This document shows positions 2,220-6,970 of a DNA stretch of 64,000 nt, piece after piece. Under the pieces are notes generated by a model, which had not been told where the DNA came from, searched no databases, and saw only the letters and a program-made list of their open reading frames with translations. The position numbers and the translations under genes were made by a program. The number at the start of each line of letters is the position of its first letter. The first letter of the stretch is position 1. Source of the stretch: a virus; the IMG/VR virus record IMGVR_UViG_3300023179_000042, positions 41,754 through 105,753 of that record, one strand, 5' to 3'.

Positions 2220-2960
2220 TTATCTAGAAATTAATTTGCTCAAATAGACTACACGATCGTATTCTTCGTTGTAGCCTCGAACAAGGTTAGGATTATCATC
2301 TTCTGGCGGAGTCACTGCTGGAGCAGCAGGTTTAGCACTTGGTTTTTTGCTCTTTGTTGGCTTGACCGCACTTGCTGCATCTGCTGGAGGCACAGCCGGA
2401 GTTGTAGCTGTACTTGCGGCTGGAGCAGCGGTAGTTGCCGCCGGCTGTGCTGAAATAGCATCTAATTTATCTTTGGCATAGGCTACTACATTTTGTCGAT
2501 CTCTACTTCTAACTTTTTGTACACTTGCCACAGCTTGATCAACTTCTTGTTTGGCCTGACCGGCAGCAACACGATTGCTAGCTGCTGTTACTCCGGTAGC
2601 AGCTGGCGCCGAAACTCCACTAGCGGAACCAGTTGGTGCTCCAGTACCACTCAATGAACTTGCTGGCGCAGTACCACCAGCTGTAGCACCTGAAGCGGAA
2701 CCAGTTGGTGCTCCAGTACCACTCAATGAACTTGCTGGCGCAGTACCACCAGCTGTAGCACCTGAAGCGGAACCAGTTGACGCGGCAGGAGCTGTTTGGG
2801 CACTATCATCCCAACTACCCTTGGCATCTTGGTAACCTTTTTTAACATCTCTTCCAAATGCTTTTAGGCCACCAACTACGTGTCCAGCTGTTTTGCCAAT
2901 AACTGAACCTAGACCTTCGTCTATAGTTTCTTCAAGTACAATAATTTCATTGATTTTCAT
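2220..2960 (-). CDS. Ala/Thr/Pro-rich low-complexity late (probable virion/internal head) protein
   Basis: Likely start MKINEII at 2960; TATAAATA upstream; internal 24-aa repeat. Confidence 0.6.
   Translation of the reverse strand: MKINEIIVLEETIDEGLGSVIGKTAGHVVGGLKAFGRDVKKGYQDAKGSWDDSAQTAPAASTGSASGATAGGTAPASSLSGTGAPTGSASGATAGGTAPASSLSGTGAPTGSASGVSAPAATGVTAASNRVAAGQAKQEVDQAVASVQKVRSRDRQNVVAYAKDKLDAISAQPAATTAAPAASTATTPAVPPADAASAVKPTKSKKPSAKPAAPAVTPPEDDNPNLVRGYNEEYDRVVYLSKLISR
2622..2779. repeat. 72-bp tandem repeat (~2.2 copies), in frame
   Basis: agcggaaccagttg recurs at 2622, 2694 and 2766; encodes TGSASGATAGGTAPASSLSGTGAP. Confidence 0.95.
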
Positions 2961-2987: not shown

Positions 2988-2995
2988 TATTTATA
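2988..2995 (-). promoter_or_regulatory. T4-type late promoter TATAAATA
   Basis: Exact consensus on minus strand, 27 nt upstream of ATG 2960. Confidence 0.7.
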
Positions 2996-3002
2996 AGGAT
3001 TA

Positions 3003-3421
3003 AGGTGAACTTTGTTCACCTGCCCTTTCGCTTGTCGCTCATGGCAAATTTACATCGAAGATGTTTAAGTATCATCTAGATTAAGTGGTCACACTTTGCC
3101 CGCACAGGGCAAAGATTTCTGGGCATCATCTGAGTTGCACAGTCACATAGCGTTAGAGCATTACAGTGGCGGTTGACCGGTACCACGAGCTCAGTCTTTA
3201 TTCAACGGCAGGAGCATACAAATACGCTATCATTCATATGTCCGTTAGGGAATTACCCTTCTTTTTGCCTATTCATTCCTCTTCAAACAACCAAATCGCA
3301 GGTCTTAGTTAGCGATCCTCATCCTTTCGGGTAGTGGTTGAGTACTCTTAGCGGCGAGAGATTTCCGTCCCTGCGACCCGAGGTCCAGGTTTAGAGCACA
3401 CGAACTTGGCCTGTGCGAGCC
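3003..3421 (-). ncRNA. Large structured non-coding RNA candidate of unknown family
   Basis: ORF-free and visibly GC-richer than flanks; about ten helices, a GAAA tetraloop, a 7-bp loop pseudoknot (3224-3230 with 3147-3153); G-U pairs favour the minus strand. Confidence 0.7.
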
Positions 3422-3856
3422 TTAACCGTTTAATTTGCCTTTGATGTGTGAGCCATGGACACGGCACTGGATATGGCCGTTGTAATATTCATCTGATTCT
3501 AAGACTTGGTGTCTAAATTGCTCTCTTGCCTCAATATAACTACATTCTGCTTTAGATTTACAGTAGTAGAGTATTTCTCGTTTAAAATTATCTTTGCCTA
3601 ATTTATTAATATCTTCTGTTAGATTAGGACTGGACCCATAATATTCCTGCCAGTCACTGTCTATTTTGCTACGAATTTTTTTCTTTTTCTTGTTGCCGTT
3701 TTTTAACTTTACTGTTTTGTAGGTTGTTTTACTAAATTTTGCTAATTTTTTGCCTATGTATTTTTTATTATTTGAAATATTTGTTATGATGTAGACAAAC
3801 CCTACACAATCTTCGGGTAGTGCCTCAACTAAAGAATTTTGATAAAACCAAGACAT
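3422..3856 (-). CDS. Stand-alone GIY-YIG endonuclease (Seg-like catalytic domain)
   Basis: GFVYIITNISNNKKYIGKK motif, YYGSS, conserved Glu (YIEARE) and YYN; Lys-rich insertion. Confidence 0.85.
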   Translation of the reverse strand: MSWFYQNSLVEALPEDCVGFVYIITNISNNKKYIGKKLAKFSKTTYKTVKLKNGNKKKKKIRSKIDSDWQEYYGSSPNLTEDINKLGKDNFKREILYYCKSKAECSYIEAREQFRHQVLESDEYYNGHIQCRVHGSHIKGKLNG

Positions 3857-4176
3857 TATGGGTCAACATTTTCGTTCGCACCATTTTTCTTTTTAAATAA
3901 CTGAGTTCGTTGTAACCGATGTTGTCTTTGTTCTCTTCTTAATCTTTTTAATTCTTTCTCACCGTGTAATTTTGTCAAATATGCTTCTCTAATACTAACC
4001 ATCATTTCTTTTTCAAGCTCGCGCATTTCTTTTAGCATACGCCGACAATCTGTACTAGATATTTCACTTACATTGGTTAAAAAAGTCGTGTGTCTGTTAT
4101 AGTAGTTTACTATTAAAGAAACAAATTTGTGATATTGTTCCTTATAATTTTCAAGATGTTGATTAGACATAGTCAA
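3856..4176 (-). CDS. Hypothetical helical/basic protein
   Basis: ORF overlaps both neighbours in the operon. Confidence 0.6.
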   Translation of the reverse strand: MTMSNQHLENYKEQYHKFVSLIVNYYNRHTTFLTNVSEISSTDCRRMLKEMRELEKEMMVSIREAYLTKLHGEKELKRLRREQRQHRLQRTQLFKKKNGANENVDP

Positions 4177-5941
4177 TATCGTTACTATAATTGGTAAAAC
4201 CGTTTTCTTTTATAACTTTCAATACATTGTTAACACGGCCAACCAATTCGTCCTTGTGCGATATTAAGTATATATTCTTATGTCGTTCTCTGGCCATTTT
4301 CTTTAGGACCGCAAGCCCTGCTTCGACACCAGCAGCATCCATTCCGGAGTCCATAAGCTCATCAACAAACAACAAATTAATACTTTGGTAAAGTCCTTCC
4401 CAAACATCTCTAAAGGCAAAACTTAGACTTAGTATTAATCTGTTTCTCTCACCTCTTGACAAATTGTCAAAATCTAAATCTTGTCCAAGTTGTGTGATTT
4501 CAACATTTAAGTCGTTTTGGAAAACAACTCTATGCGGTAGTCCGAGCTTGTCAATGTAGTATCCAAGTCGCTTGTTTAAATAGGTTAAATTTTGATCAAT
4601 AATTTTCTTACGAATAAAGCTATCTTTATTGGTTAAAAGTTTGTGTAAAAATTCTTGATGATCTTTTAGTTTGGTAAGTTCGTTAACAGTATCCCAACTG
4701 ATTTCTTGAATAGCTGTAGTCTTAAGTTCATCAATTTGTTCATTAAAGGGATTTTTTTCTTCTGCTTTAGATATTAGAGTTTTTTCCAAATTTTCTAAAT
4801 TGTTCTTGTGCCCTAGTGCTTCGGCTTCTGTATCGTAGTAGGTGTTAGGACGAGCAGGCATATCACCACTACCGATTTCGTCAACAATCTTTTTAAGATC
4901 CGAGGTTACTTTATTGAAATATGTTTCAGCCTCGAGCAAGTTTTTAACGGCCGTTCCTGACATTTCTTCGTGCTTATGATCGTGTAATGCTTGCTCGCAG
5001 GCAGGGCATGTTTTATTTTTTAATTGGTCAACTTCTCGCATGTACTTGTCGCGGGTTTTTTGAGCCTGCGTAGCTGCGCTTTCTAATGTAGCTTTTTGTT
5101 TGTTGAGGCTTCGGGTCTTGTTGTCGTATTCAAGCCAGGCTTTTAAATCTAGATGTGCCTGGAGTTCTGCTTCTATATCAACATTTTCTAAATTAACAAT
5201 AGCACGACCGAGATTTTCTAATTCTTGTTGATGTTTTTGATCCCAGGCATTACTTTTTAATTGAAGACTATCAATACTTCGTTGAATATTATCATTAGCA
5301 GTTTTAATACCTTGTATTTTGAAATCTTCTTGGCTAATAAGATCTTTAGTTTCTTTAATTAGAACCTTAAGGTTTTCTGCCTTTTCACTTAGTAAGGTAA
5401 TACCAAGAAGCTGTTCAATGATTTCTCGCTGATCAGCAGCCCTCATTGACAAAAAAGGCTCAGTGTAAGTATTAAGGGCTACAAGGTGCTTGAACATAGT
5501 ATGTGTCATTTCGAGCATTTGTTCAATACTTTTTTGTGTTTCTCGACTGTCGCCCTGGCTATCATCCTCTTCTTTGCTATCTTTTAACTGCTGATTATTA
5601 ACGAATAACTTAAGAATATTGGGTTTACGACCACGCTCAATACGATAGATATTATTATTTTTTTCAAACTCAACGGTGACTAACATGTGCTTCCCGTTAA
5701 TCTTGTTGATAAGATTTTCTTTTTTAATATTGGTTAAGGCCTGCCCATATAGGGCGTAGCTTAGTGCGTTGGCAATGGTAGTCTTACCGGTGCCGTTTCT
5801 GCTACCTGTATCGTCGCCACCGAGATCGAGGTTAGCACCAAGAACCAGCGTTAAATGTGAGCGGTCAAAATCTACAGCCTGAGTTTGGTTGCCTACGCTC
5901 AAAAAGTTTTTTACGGTTAATGTCTTTATTTTAAACATCAA
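4163..5941 (-). CDS. gp46: Rad50/SbcC-like recombination ATPase (T4 gp46)
   Basis: Walker A NGTGKTT, zinc hook CPAC, signature LSRGE, Walker B LLFVDE, ISH motif. Confidence 0.95.
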   Translation of the reverse strand: MMFKIKTLTVKNFLSVGNQTQAVDFDRSHLTLVLGANLDLGGDDTGSRNGTGKTTIANALSYALYGQALTNIKKENLINKINGKHMLVTVEFEKNNNIYRIERGRKPNILKLFVNNQQLKDSKEEDDSQGDSRETQKSIEQMLEMTHTMFKHLVALNTYTEPFLSMRAADQREIIEQLLGITLLSEKAENLKVLIKETKDLISQEDFKIQGIKTANDNIQRSIDSLQLKSNAWDQKHQQELENLGRAIVNLENVDIEAELQAHLDLKAWLEYDNKTRSLNKQKATLESAATQAQKTRDKYMREVDQLKNKTCPACEQALHDHKHEEMSGTAVKNLLEAETYFNKVTSDLKKIVDEIGSGDMPARPNTYYDTEAEALGHKNNLENLEKTLISKAEEKNPFNEQIDELKTTAIQEISWDTVNELTKLKDHQEFLHKLLTNKDSFIRKKIIDQNLTYLNKRLGYYIDKLGLPHRVVFQNDLNVEITQLGQDLDFDNLSRGERNRLILSLSFAFRDVWEGLYQSINLLFVDELMDSGMDAAGVEAGLAVLKKMARERHKNIYLISHKDELVGRVNNVLKVIKENGFTNYSNDIDYV

Positions 5942-6951
5942 ATATTTCTATAAATGTCAAGAAGTATATTTTTTTCAAATTGTTCTGATTCAATGTTAAC
6001 TAATTGTTCACTTACAATTTGATCTACACTTTCAAATTTTTGATCAGGATTGTCTTCAACAATTCCTTCGAGATTGATTTTATCTTGTATAAGACTAATT
6101 TCTCTGATGTCAAAGCGACCAGTGAAGTCTTCTTTGATAAAATTGGCTTCTTCGAAGCTAATATCAATATCGAGATTAACTTTTAAGTGCATTTTACTTT
6201 TCATTACTTCAGCTTCTCGATCGATTAAGTCGGAAAGTTTTATTGTTCTGTATTTTGGACAGTTATCCCAATCGATAAATCTTGGCTTTCCGCCCCATTC
6301 CATTACCATCATTCCGCGCTGATCGTCCCAGGTATCGGCAAAATTATGCGGAAAGGCATTGCCGATGTACCAAACACGCCCTTTATTTTGGCGCTTGTGA
6401 AAATGCCCGCTAAAGATATATTCTTGATTGGTAAAGTGATCTGCTTGAAGCTCGCCGTGGTCGGGCATTTGTACCATAGCATTCATCATGAACTGTGGTA
6501 GTTCAAAATGTCCAAACATGTACTTACTGTTTATCTTGCCAATTTCTTTCCATTCGTCACCTACCAACCACGGTACTAAAGCCACATCGTCTATGACGGT
6601 AACATCTTCGACTACAGTGACGCCTGGGATATGCCTACCAAAAATACTAGAATGGATATCGCGCTTGTCCTTAAAAAACAAATCGTGATTACCAGGAAAC
6701 CAGAAAAACTGGTTAAATGCAGCTCCGAGCTTTTCAAGGCACCTAATGCTTGAATCAAGAGTTACAAGATTTAGGCTATTGCGATTGTGGCTCCAATCGC
6801 CTAAAAATATGCCTGTGTCACAATTTTCTTTTTGTGCCTGCTCAATAAACCAATCTACAAACTCTTCGCAGTCTTTCAAGTGTGTAGCTGAGTTTCCTTT
6901 GAGTCCAAAATGTATGTCAGTAAAACAAGCAACCTTTTTAAACAAGGCCAT
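5938..6951 (-). CDS. gp47: Mre11/SbcD-like nuclease (T4 gp47)
   Basis: DIHFG, GDW, GNHD, GHFE and SGHFH metallophosphoesterase motifs; start MALFKK follows an AGGAG SD. Confidence 0.95.
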   Translation of the reverse strand: MALFKKVACFTDIHFGLKGNSATHLKDCEEFVDWFIEQAQKENCDTGIFLGDWSHNRNSLNLVTLDSSIRCLEKLGAAFNQFFWFPGNHDLFFKDKRDIHSSIFGRHIPGVTVVEDVTVIDDVALVPWLVGDEWKEIGKINSKYMFGHFELPQFMMNAMVQMPDHGELQADHFTNQEYIFSGHFHKRQNKGRVWYIGNAFPHNFADTWDDQRGMMVMEWGGKPRFIDWDNCPKYRTIKLSDLIDREAEVMKSKMHLKVNLDIDISFEEANFIKEDFTGRFDIREISLIQDKINLEGIVEDNPDQKFESVDQIVSEQLVNIESEQFEKNILLDIYRNI

Positions 6952-6970
6952 ATAATATTCTCCTGTCAAG

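What the first reader, a model, noticed from the sequence alone, without database searches (positions are those of the whole stretch)
3003..3421. Unannotated ~420-nt pseudoknotted ncRNA directly downstream of a GIY-YIG nuclease
Seen: the only long ORF-free gap in an otherwise tightly packed window, GC-richer than its flanks and starting at the GIY-YIG stop codon. Minus-strand helices in order: GCACA/TGTGC; CCTG-GACC/GGTC-CAGG; CTCT/AGAG; CAACCA/TGGTTG enclosing CC-GAAA-GG and ATCGC/GCGAT; AGGG/CCCT; CATATGAAT/ATTTGTATG (two G-U pairs, which fix the strand), whose loop ATAGCGT pairs with downstream ACGCTAT as a pseudoknot (3224-3230 with 3147-3153); nested GAGC/GCTC, GTGG/CCAC and CGG/CCG; CTTTGCCC/GGGCAAAG (3094-3114); terminal AGGTGAAC/GTTCACCT (3003-3021). 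It does not fit tRNA, tmRNA, RNase P or group I/II intron consensus as I know them. Inference: a large phage ncRNA (ribozyme, RNP scaffold or replication-origin RNA).
Basis: partly seen in the sequence, partly recalled or inferred. Interest (0 to 1): 0.9.

Follow-up and report, generated by a model that had tools for sequence, protein, structure and literature searches.

The report
Extended Polynucleobacter-1 twin-box RNA
The gene-free gap behind a small nuclease gene of this freshwater T4-like phage encodes a real, doubly knotted non-coding RNA of about 425 bases; its first third is a motif catalogued in 2010, its function is unknown, and it carries one 7-letter word twice, always identical within an RNA but different between mobile elements.

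Summary
Window 3003-3430 (minus strand) is a non-coding, structured RNA gene. It is not wholly new: 3285-3421 is a full-length match to Rfam RF01718, Polynucleobacter-1 (120.8 bits, cut-off 37). The other ~285 nt are unmodelled but equally conserved. All 136 related viral loci carry both parts as one unit.

On 78 non-redundant sequences, 86.7% of cells pair, against 36-44% when partners are slid. 75 of 98 pairs show compensatory changes.

Two single-stranded 7-mers (3131-3125, 3077-3071) are identical to each other in 130 of 131 phage loci. At least 14 different words occur, and no complementary partner was found in cis.

The GIY-YIG gene is the usual neighbour (105/112) but not an obligate one. 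Two loci have a PD-(D/E)XK nuclease in that slot, and enzyme relatives in cultured phages lack the RNA.

The same RNA also sits in tRNA-Phe genomic islands of about 12% of Polynucleobacter species, between DUF6641 and a small tyrosine recombinase.

Function is unknown. My best guess is a trans-acting adaptor that pairs twice with one 7-nt word.

Earlier agents of this scan reported the same RNA on other phage genomes.

The parts
3003..3430 (-). Whole conserved RNA (~425 nt), from the AAACGGT leader to the terminal hairpin
   Evidence: A profile of 15 homologues matches window 3430-3005 (hmm positions 2-424) and matches 136 viral loci, nearly all full length. BLAST and MAFFT homology at 71-94% identity runs over the whole stretch.
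3285..3421 (-). 5' domain, equal to Rfam RF01718 Polynucleobacter-1 RNA
   Evidence: cmscan gives 120.8 bits (gathering score 37), E = 1e-25, covering model positions 1-141 of 141.
3003..3284 (-). 3' domain, not in any Rfam model
   Evidence: No Rfam match even at E up to 10 apart from chance rows. It is conserved and covarying in 78 non-redundant sequences.
3224..3230 (-). Pseudoknot 1, 5' strand (ATAGCGT, loop of hairpin 3240-3215)
   Evidence: Pairs with 3147-3153. 98.9% of cells pair and all 7 pairs show changes on both sides (helix 12).
3147..3153 (-). Pseudoknot 1, 3' strand (ACGCTAT)
   Evidence: helix 12.
3202..3206 (-). Pseudoknot 2, 5' strand (GTTGA)
   Evidence: Pairs with TCAAC 3172-3176 in the loop of hairpin 3186-3166. 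98.7% of cells pair and 3 of 5 pairs are compensatory: TTGA/TCAA, TCAT/ATGA, TCAG/CTGA, TTGT/ACAA (helix 13).
3172..3176 (-). Pseudoknot 2, 3' strand (TCAAC)
   Evidence: helix 13.
3125..3135 (-). Box 1: invariant ACTC followed by the variable 7-mer AGATGAT (3131-3125)
   Evidence: The 7-mer equals that of box 2 in 128 of 128 loci found by regular expression, plus L064 and L089. L018 is the only mismatch.
3071..3081 (-). Box 2: invariant ATCT followed by the same 7-mer AGATGAT (3077-3071)
   Evidence: The only column that covaries with each variable box column is its twin in the other box.
3094..3114 (-). Hairpin CTTTGCCC/GGGCAAAG between the two boxes
   Evidence: helix 17: 84.9% paired, 4 pairs with double changes.
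3004..3046 (-). 3' hairpins: TGCC/GGCA with the conserved GAGCG-N3-AGCGAAA loop, then the terminal hairpin GGTGAAC/GTTCACC
   Evidence: helices 20-23. The terminal stem has 7 of 7 pairs with double changes.
3422..3856 (-). Upstream neighbour: 144-aa GIY-YIG protein with the catalytic domain only (PF19835, phrog_447). It is the usual neighbour, not part of the RNA.
   Evidence: Pfam E = 3.5e-33 and PHROG E = 6.8e-37. It lies directly upstream of the RNA in 105 of 112 loci. The AF2 model weakly resembles the I-TevI catalytic domain.
2988..2995 (-). TATAAATA (T4 late-promoter consensus) just 3' of the RNA, ahead of the downstream gene (ATG at 2960)
   Evidence: It is present within -1 to +15 nt of the RNA's end in 23 of 104 loci, against a background of 0.007 per 175 nt. 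Its function as a promoter is inferred from T4 biology.

Best explanation
Window 3003-3430 (minus strand) is a free-standing gene for a ~425-nt non-coding RNA with two pseudoknots. It is the full-length form of the Polynucleobacter-1 motif (RF01718). It belongs to mobile elements of freshwater Burkholderiales. There is one copy in each T4-like (jumbo) phage of one clade, and one or two copies in tRNA-Phe genomic islands of about one Polynucleobacter species in eight.

Shown:
- The RNA is non-coding.
- It has a conserved, covarying fold.
- It is not tied to one neighbouring protein.
- It displays two apparently unpaired 7-nt boxes that are identical within each RNA but differ between elements.

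Inferred (about 35% likely): the conserved scaffold works in trans as a bivalent adaptor. Both boxes base-pair with the same complementary 7-nt word on a partner nucleic acid, either two copies of it or its two strands. The box word would set the specificity of each element. The partner and the outcome (targeting, tethering or sequestering) are unknown. The GIY-YIG nuclease is at most an optional partner.

The confidence given (0.4) is for the statement as a whole. The shown part alone I put at about 0.9.
For: Known family: RF01718 at 120.8 bits, full length.

One unit: 136 viral loci carry the 5' and 3' domains together.

Structure: 86.7% of cells pair against 36-44% in slid controls. 75 of 98 pairs show double changes. 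The covariation score is 0.409 against 0.07-0.08, and 0 of 500 shuffles reach it.

Non-coding: no codon periodicity.

Not a leader of the downstream gene:
- Downstream genes differ between loci (fam4, fam13, or genes on the opposite strand in L010/L012).
- A late-promoter consensus lies 3' of the RNA.

Twin boxes:
- They are identical in 130 of 131 phage loci, across 9 words.
- In an unbiased sample of RF01718 hits in bacterial genomes, 8 of 12 are identical and 4 differ by 1-2 nt. This adds 5 more words.
- Two copies in one genome carry different words: AGAGAAA twice and AGCGAAA twice.
- At least 28 state changes map on the RNA tree.
- No other RNA column covaries with the boxes.

Mobile and accessory: 17 of 141 Polynucleobacter genomes carry it, in islands at tRNA-Phe.
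Against: No partner was found:
- There is no conserved complementary word in the RNA, its flanks, the islands or the att sites.
- There is no palindromic target in a complete 354,680-bp phage genome.
- The box word is neither avoided nor enriched in the phage's own DNA: 99 observed against 95 expected.
- The extended complement is not enriched in host genomes.

Identity of two direct repeats is also what protein-bound iterons show, so the constraint could act on DNA.

Recombination can move both boxes together, because they lie only ~54 nt apart. This may inflate the count of independent changes.

There is no transcript evidence of any kind. That the boxes are unpaired is inferred only from the lack of a covarying partner.
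Confidence: 0.4

Rival explanations
1. RNA-guided DNA enzyme. The twin boxes are guides that give target specificity to the neighbouring minimal enzyme. In phages this is the GIY-YIG or PD-(D/E)XK nuclease, and in islands it is the ~190-aa tyrosine recombinase. HEARO RNA, described in the same 2010 paper that named Polynucleobacter-1 (PMC2864571), later proved to be the guide RNA of IscB (from my own knowledge).
For: - The 144-aa GIY-YIG protein is a bare catalytic domain and abuts the RNA in 105 of 112 loci.
- Two loci have a different nuclease fold (PF24608) in the same slot.
- In bacteria, a tyrosine recombinase with only the catalytic domain lies downstream in 23 of 26 loci with at least 1.1 kb of downstream flank.
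- The RNA combines a conserved scaffold with short variable boxes.
Against: - No protein family is shared between the phage and bacterial contexts.
- Enzyme relatives in 494 cultured phage records lack the RNA. No RNA match was found in 50,697 phage records, and RF01718 is absent from the whole Melnitz and phiM7 genomes.
- In L041, L087 and L130, extra genes separate the enzyme from the RNA. In L051 and L131, unrelated proteins take the slot.
- No target was found and there is no self-avoidance.
- Bare GIY-YIG enzymes (T4 endonuclease II) and ~200-aa tyrosine recombinases (FimB/FimE) work without RNA (from my own knowledge).
Confidence: 0.12
2. DNA-level repeats. The twin boxes are iteron-like binding sites for an element-specific protein, such as a replication initiator or regulator. 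The transcript would be an origin or primer RNA.
For: - The direct repeats are identical within an element and differ between elements, which is how iterons behave.
- The locus lies beside the recombination and replication genes gp46/gp47 in phages.
- In islands it lies beside a clamp-loader-like AAA ATPase.
- DUF6641 is transcribed divergently from the RNA in bacteria.
Against: - There are only two repeats of 11 bp, and their spacing varies (about 50-72 bp).
- They sit inside a region whose covariation is RNA-specific and includes G-U pairs.
- No candidate binding protein is shared by phages and islands.
- At least 14 words would require as many changes in protein specificity.
Confidence: 0.12
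3. The RNA acts on a host component shared by these phages and islands, for example as a decoy or sponge for a host RNA-binding protein, nuclease or defence system, or as an RNA-only assembly. The boxes would be the recognised elements.
For: - The same RNA is found in two unrelated kinds of mobile element of the same host group, with no shared neighbouring protein.
- It is large, highly conserved and has many conserved unpaired nucleotides.
Against: - Recognition by one host factor does not explain why the two boxes must be identical, yet may take 14 or more words, with two different words in one genome.
- No known defence family is nearby.
Confidence: 0.15
4. A cis-acting untranslated region. 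It would be either a 3' UTR that stabilises or regulates the nuclease mRNA, or a 5' leader of the downstream gene, which was the tentative 2010 classification.
For: - The RNA starts 0-20 nt after the nuclease stop codon in most phage loci.
- No promoter or terminator stands out between gp47 and the RNA.
- Weinberg et al. scored the motif as probably cis-regulatory.
Against: - In bacteria the upstream gene is divergent, and the recombinase lies 170-1500 nt downstream with other ORFs between.
- In phages the downstream genes vary, or lie on the other strand.
- A late-promoter consensus follows the RNA.
- The upstream gene is replaced or separated from the RNA in 7 of 112 loci.
- A 425-nt RNA with two pseudoknots is far beyond known UTR elements.
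Confidence: 0.05
5. The nuclease adjacency comes from homing-endonuclease biology. The small nucleases are free-standing homing endonucleases, some of them domesticated, that landed beside the RNA gene because its sequence is highly conserved. They have no functional link to the RNA. This explains the neighbourhood only, not what the RNA does.
For: - The gene matches the SegE family and homing-endonuclease profiles.
- The slot is swapped for a PD-(D/E)XK nuclease in L045 and L076, and extra ORFs are inserted in L041, L087 and L130.
Against: - The gene is present in 94% of loci and shows 54-84% amino-acid identity to the window's protein (71-84% for all but the divergent L010), with no pseudogenes seen.
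- The family is near-universal in cyanomyophages. That is unlike a sporadic selfish gene.
Confidence: 0.3

Closest known systems
Polynucleobacter-1 RNA motif (Rfam RF01718; Weinberg et al. 2010, Genome Biol 11:R31, PMC2864571)
   Same: Window 3285-3421 is a full-length, high-scoring member (120.8 bits). The habitat is the same (fresh water, Polynucleobacter). The position fits the authors' remark that it lies downstream of a GOS11034 / PSSM2_218-like gene. The family's function is unknown.
   Different: The Rfam model is 141 nt. The real unit is ~425-480 nt and includes two pseudoknots, the twin boxes and three 3' hairpins. The authors found it in no sequenced phage and leaned towards a cis-regulatory role. 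Here it is a core feature of a T4-like phage clade and a cargo of genomic islands. Their raw alignment shows the flanks, twin boxes included, but does not model them.
Guide RNAs with a large scaffold and short programmable segments: omega RNA/HEARO with IscB, IS110 bridge RNA, TIGR-Tas tigRNA (PMC11208158, PMC12045711)
   Same: A conserved structured scaffold carries short variable segments. It resides in mobile elements next to DNA-cutting or DNA-joining enzymes. Dual short segments are known in bridge RNAs and tigRNAs.
   Different: There is no obligate effector family and no identified target. The two segments are identical to each other rather than independent. Only 7 nt vary. None of the known effector domains (RuvC, HNH, DEDD, Nop) is present.
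Large orphan structured RNAs of bacteria and phages (GOLLD, ROOL, OLE, raiA)
   Same: It is over 400 nt, has many helices and pseudoknots, is found by comparative genomics, is often phage- or element-borne, and has no known function.
   Different: There is no sequence or model similarity. None of those is described with an internally duplicated variable word (from my own knowledge).
Plasmid and phage iterons
   Same: These are direct repeats that are identical within a replicon and differ between related replicons.
   Different: Iterons are usually 17-22 bp, occur in three or more copies, and lie in non-transcribed origin DNA next to a rep gene. Here there are two 11-nt repeats inside a covarying RNA fold.

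Membership tests
Rfam RF01718 Polynucleobacter-1 | Covariance-model score at or above the curated gathering score (37 bits) | tested here: met
   120.8 bits, E = 1.1e-25. The own-genome search gives the same result.
Rfam RF01718 Polynucleobacter-1 | All model helices present, with the full model length matched | tested here: met
   Model positions 1-141 of 141 match with no truncation. The helices covary in 78 sequences (helices 2-8).
Rfam RF01718 Polynucleobacter-1 | Lies downstream of a GOS11034 / PSSM2_218-like gene (authors' context remark) | tested here: inconclusive
   The upstream gene is phrog_447, with homologues in Prochlorococcus and Synechococcus myophages. PSSM2_218 itself was not compared. 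The bacterial members lack this gene.
RNA-guided nuclease or recombinase systems (omega RNA, bridge RNA, tigRNA) | Conserved scaffold plus variable, element-specific short segment(s) | tested here: met
   14 or more box words sit on a conserved scaffold, and two different words occur in one genome.
RNA-guided nuclease or recombinase systems (omega RNA, bridge RNA, tigRNA) | Obligate co-occurrence with one effector protein family | tested here: not met
   The neighbour is GIY-YIG in 105 of 112 phage loci, PD-(D/E)XK in 2, and other proteins in the rest. The bacterial loci have none of these. No family is shared between the two contexts. Enzyme relatives lack the RNA.
RNA-guided nuclease or recombinase systems (omega RNA, bridge RNA, tigRNA) | The variable segment is complementary to an identifiable target (element ends, att site, protospacer) | tested here: inconclusive
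   No complement was found in the flanks, islands, att repeats, own phage genome or host genomes. A 7-nt word is too short for a genome-wide search to exclude a target.
Cis-regulatory 5' UTR element or riboswitch | Constant position upstream of one gene family on the same transcript | tested here: not met
   The downstream genes differ or lie on the other strand. A late-promoter consensus lies between the RNA and the next gene. In bacteria the gap to the next gene is variable, 170-1500 nt.
Group I or group II intron carrying a homing endonuclease | Match to intron models, with flanking exons of a split gene | tested here: not met
   No intron family matches even at E up to 10. The flanking genes are complete and unrelated.
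tRNA / tmRNA | Detected by ARAGORN | tested here: not met
   No tRNA or tmRNA genes in the window.
Iteron-type replication origin | Three or more identical direct repeats next to an initiator gene, with origin activity | not testable with these tools
   Two identical repeats are seen. Protein binding and origin firing need experiments.

The most novel reading that the evidence does not exclude
The twin-box RNA is a programmable, bivalent guide. Its two identical 7-nt boxes would direct minimal DNA enzymes of mobile elements to a DNA site that carries the word twice or on both strands. In jumbo phages the enzymes would be GIY-YIG or PD-(D/E)XK nucleases, and in genomic islands a tyrosine recombinase with only the catalytic domain. 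This would be a new class of RNA-guided DNA-targeting system whose effectors can be exchanged.
Probability: 0.1. Interest if true: 0.95.

Novelty: new variant of a known kind. Interest (0 to 1): 0.62.

Why it matters
An orphan motif from 2010 turns out to be one third of a ~425-nt RNA with two pseudoknots. That RNA is conserved in a whole clade of freshwater jumbo T4-like phages and in genomic islands of their likely hosts.

Its two boxes are kept identical within each RNA yet differ between elements. That is the signature of a specificity determinant, and no described RNA class is known to me with this feature.

One host strain, P. asymbioticus QLW-P1DMWA-1, is cultured and carries the RNA. 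The question of what the RNA does can therefore be tested directly.

If the boxes prove to be guides, this would repeat the history of HEARO, an orphan RNA from the same paper that became the IscB guide RNA.

Tried and rejected
- Folding this single sequence: z = -1.1 on the minus strand and -0.3 on the plus strand, which is uninformative.
- Rfam at E up to 10 for the 3' domain: only chance rows (RefA5, MIR3932, GibS).
- blastn of the RNA against 50,697 phage records: no match.
- First scan of bacterial genomes with the phage-type 5' motif: 0 hits. The bacterial branch was found only with the box word taken from Weinberg's alignment.
- Sequencing runs: no RNA holder is listed. Only freshwater and lake DNA metagenomes hold the stretch.
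- A third, cis partner for the boxes by mutual information: none found.
- The box complement in flanks, islands and att repeats: nothing consistent.
- A palindromic target in a complete phage genome: 0 hits.
- Self-avoidance of the box word: 99 observed against 95 expected.
- The 11-nt extended complement in five host genomes: equal to the control.
- A short helix between the two box modules (3140-3138 with 3087-3085): seen by eye in many sequences (GTTC/GAAC, TTCG/CGAA), but only 51% paired in the alignment, so I do not claim it (helix 16).
- Readings of the boxes as box C/D or k-turn, stop codon, codon or anticodon loop: considered by eye, and none fits all the variants.
- DUF6641: a confident AF2 model (pLDDT 87.6) but no fold match (Foldseek E >= 0.2; VIA Z < 5). 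No homology to the GIY-YIG protein.
- PADLOC: no defence system in the island module.
- The GIY-YIG protein against PDB sequences: only a marginal hit, E = 0.1.
- Complex prediction was not used, because it does not take RNA.

Full report
**What is at the site.** The window is part of a 105,753-bp IMG/VR viral record. The phage is T4-like. Minus-strand genes 5938-6969 and 4163-5941 are the gp47/gp46-type Mre11/Rad50 pair (Metallophos; SMC_N/AAA_23), and 1128-1994 is a T4 baseplate protein.

Gene 3422-3856 (minus strand) is a 144-aa GIY-YIG protein (PF19835, E = 3.5e-33; phrog_447). From its stop codon down to the ATG at 2960 there is no ORF above 53 aa. The other ORF-poor stretches of the window hold ORFs of 74-99 aa.

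**Known part.** Rfam places window 3421-3285 (minus strand) in RF01718, Polynucleobacter-1. The match scores 120.8 bits against a gathering score of 37 and covers model positions 1-141 of 141. There are no tRNA or tmRNA genes.

The only paper in the library that names the motif is Weinberg et al. 2010. Its supplement says four things:
- the motif occurs in aquatic metagenomes and in Polynucleobacter sp. QLW-P1DMWA-1;
- its 3' half is not always detected;
- it usually lies downstream of a GOS11034 / PSSM2_218-like gene;
- it was seen in no sequenced phage.

The authors rated it as probably cis-regulatory.

**The real unit is three times longer.**
- A scan of IMG/VR with a 5'-domain pattern gave 18 loci. 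Their homology to the window (71-94% identity) runs through the whole ~425 nt, ends at the terminal hairpin, and is followed by an AT-rich spacer and the next ATG.
- A profile of the full RNA matches 136 loci, nearly all from end to end.
- A 354,680-bp phage genome, rated complete, holds exactly one copy.
- Variability in the RNA has no 3-base period (0.91/0.86/0.85), unlike the upstream gene (0.80/0.68/1.32), so the RNA is non-coding.

**Structure.** I aligned 78 sequences that are below 93% identical to each other. RNAalifold found 56 pairs, 37 of them with compensatory changes.

It has 98 pairs in 23 helices, and its scores are:
- 86.7% of cells pair, against 36-44% when the 3' partners are slid;
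- 75 pairs show changes on both sides;
- the covariation score is 0.409, against 0.07-0.08;
- 0 of 500 shuffles reach it.

A second pseudoknot, GTTGA 3206-3202 with TCAAC 3176-3172, pairs in 98.7% of cells, and three pairs covary.

Frequent G-U cells fix the strand as minus. Folding the single sequence is no better than shuffles, so the support is comparative.

**Twin boxes.** Two stretches share one 7-mer: ACTC-AGATGAT-G (3135-3124) and ATCT-AGATGAT-A (3081-3070).

In the phage loci:
- The two 7-mers are identical in 128 of 128 loci found by regular expression.
- They are also identical in L064 (AGTTGAA) and L089 (AGATGAG).
- L018 is the only mismatch.
- Nine words occur in phages.

On a tree built without the box columns, the word changes at least 28 times. 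Recombination may inflate that count.

Each variable box column covaries only with its twin in the other box. No complementary word recurs in the RNA or its flanks.

**Neighbours in phages.** The synteny is gp47 - gp46 - small ORFs - GIY-YIG - RNA - late genes. The GIY-YIG gene ends between -12 and +113 nt of the RNA in 105 of 112 loci.

The exceptions:
- L045 and L076 have a PD-(D/E)XK nuclease (PF24608, phrog_244) in the slot.
- L051 and L131 have unrelated proteins there.
- L041, L087 and L130 have an extra ORF between the enzyme and the RNA.

Enzyme homologues occur in 494 cultured phage records. The RNA has no blastn match in that collection. RF01718 is absent from the whole genomes of Melnitz and phiM7.

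TATAAATA follows the RNA within 15 nt in 23 of 104 loci, including the window (2995-2988), so the next gene has its own T4-type late promoter.

The AF2 model of the enzyme (pLDDT 79) weakly resembles the I-TevI catalytic domain. Its Lys-rich insertion folds as a long beta-hairpin.

**A bacterial branch.** Weinberg's raw alignment shows the Polynucleobacter copy with twin boxes ACUC-AGCGAAA and AUCU-AGCGAAA. That word pair hits 19 bacterial contigs. Most are Polynucleobacter, including Mb-size chromosomes, and the rest are other Burkholderiales.
- RF01718 scores 79-104 bits there.
- It is present in 17 of 141 Polynucleobacter species genomes, so it is accessory.
- The phage profile aligns to several copies over the whole length.

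The bacterial context is conserved:
- DUF6641 (phrog_31551) is transcribed divergently upstream in 26 of 28 loci with at least 700 nt of upstream flank.
- A tyrosine recombinase whose conserved part is ~190-200 aa lies downstream in 23 of 26 loci with at least 1.1 kb of downstream flank.
- An AAA ATPase follows.

The modules are cargo of islands arrayed at tRNA-Phe, each with its own large integrase.

An unbiased sample of copies adds the words ATCAAAA, AACAAAA, AGAGAAA and GGAGAAA. Four pairs differ by 1-2 nt. One genome has two copies with different words, AGAGAAA twice and AGCGAAA twice.

No DUF6641 or small-recombinase homologue occurs in the phage loci, and there is no GIY-YIG gene in the bacterial loci.

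**Search for a target.** Every search was negative:
- The word is not in the att repeats.
- No palindromic site occurs in a complete phage genome.
- There is no self-avoidance: 99 observed against 95 expected.
- The extended complement is not enriched in five host genomes.
- There is no known defence family in the island module.
- DUF6641 has no fold match.
- No RNA sequencing run is listed for the stretch.

**Reading.** This much is shown: a free-standing, non-coding RNA with two pseudoknots, a member of a known family that extends well beyond its model, mobile, and not bound to one neighbouring protein.

The twin boxes need an explanation. Identity across 14 or more words, with no cis partner, points to one shared trans partner. 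Base pairing with a nucleic acid is the simplest way to tolerate so many words (about 35%).

Alternatives that remain open:
- an iteron-like protein site acting on DNA;
- a host-directed decoy;
- a guide for the neighbouring enzymes. This last is weakened by the lack of a shared effector and of any target.

Earlier agents of this scan reached the same description on other phage genomes. I re-tested their claims here.
- the bacterial DUF6641-RNA-recombinase module at tRNA-Phe islands;
- the swap of the GIY-YIG gene for a PD-(D/E)XK nuclease;
- the second pseudoknot;
- the late promoter after the RNA;
- the count of box words.

Noticed in passing
window 2600-2790 (minus-strand gene 2220-2960): The downstream late gene holds a near-perfect tandem duplication of about 75 nt. 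It encodes an Ala/Pro/Gly-rich low-complexity stretch. The protein has no Pfam or PHROG match, and only its N-terminus (MKINEII..EE..DE) is conserved among loci.
   Followed up: no
L045:3963-4484 and L076:8819-9385: In two related phages, a PD-(D/E)XK nuclease of 173-188 aa (PF24608, phrog_244) replaces the GIY-YIG gene directly upstream of the RNA. This is a non-orthologous swap of nuclease folds at one slot.
   Followed up: partly
G001:C1:392000-430000 (L159, L160): Polynucleobacter sp. MWH-HuK1 has a tandem array of islands at tRNA-Phe(GAA). There are at least eight copies or remnants of the tRNA 3' half, most preceded by the hairpin AAAAACCACCCGAAGGTGGTTTT. The array also holds two large integrases and two RNA modules.
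   Followed up: partly
L022:8265-8636: One phage locus carries a natural deletion variant of the RNA. It lacks the 3' strand of pseudoknot 1, box 1 and the hairpin between the boxes. It may be a decaying copy.
   Followed up: no
window 3026-3040 (minus strand) and all homologues: The loop of the penultimate hairpin keeps the motif GAGCG-N3-AGCGAA(A) in both phage and bacterial RNAs. Its AGCGAAA equals the commonest bacterial box word. I cannot tell whether this is chance or meaningful.
   Followed up: no
window 3422-3856, residues about 40-66: The GIY-YIG protein carries an invariant Lys-rich insertion (KLKNG.KKKKKIRSK), predicted as a long beta-hairpin. It is a plausible nucleic-acid-binding arm.
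   Followed up: partly
G146 (record of L029): A related phage record of 354,680 bp is rated 100% complete, so this T4-like clade is of jumbo size. The window's own record is estimated at about 30% complete.
   Followed up: no
window 3138-3146 / 3085-3092 and the bacterial homologues: Each box is the end of a longer duplicated module: GUG(U)RS - 4 to 6 nt - AAYYY - 7-mer. This module is conserved in both the phage and bacterial branches, so the internal duplication is ancient.
   Followed up: partly
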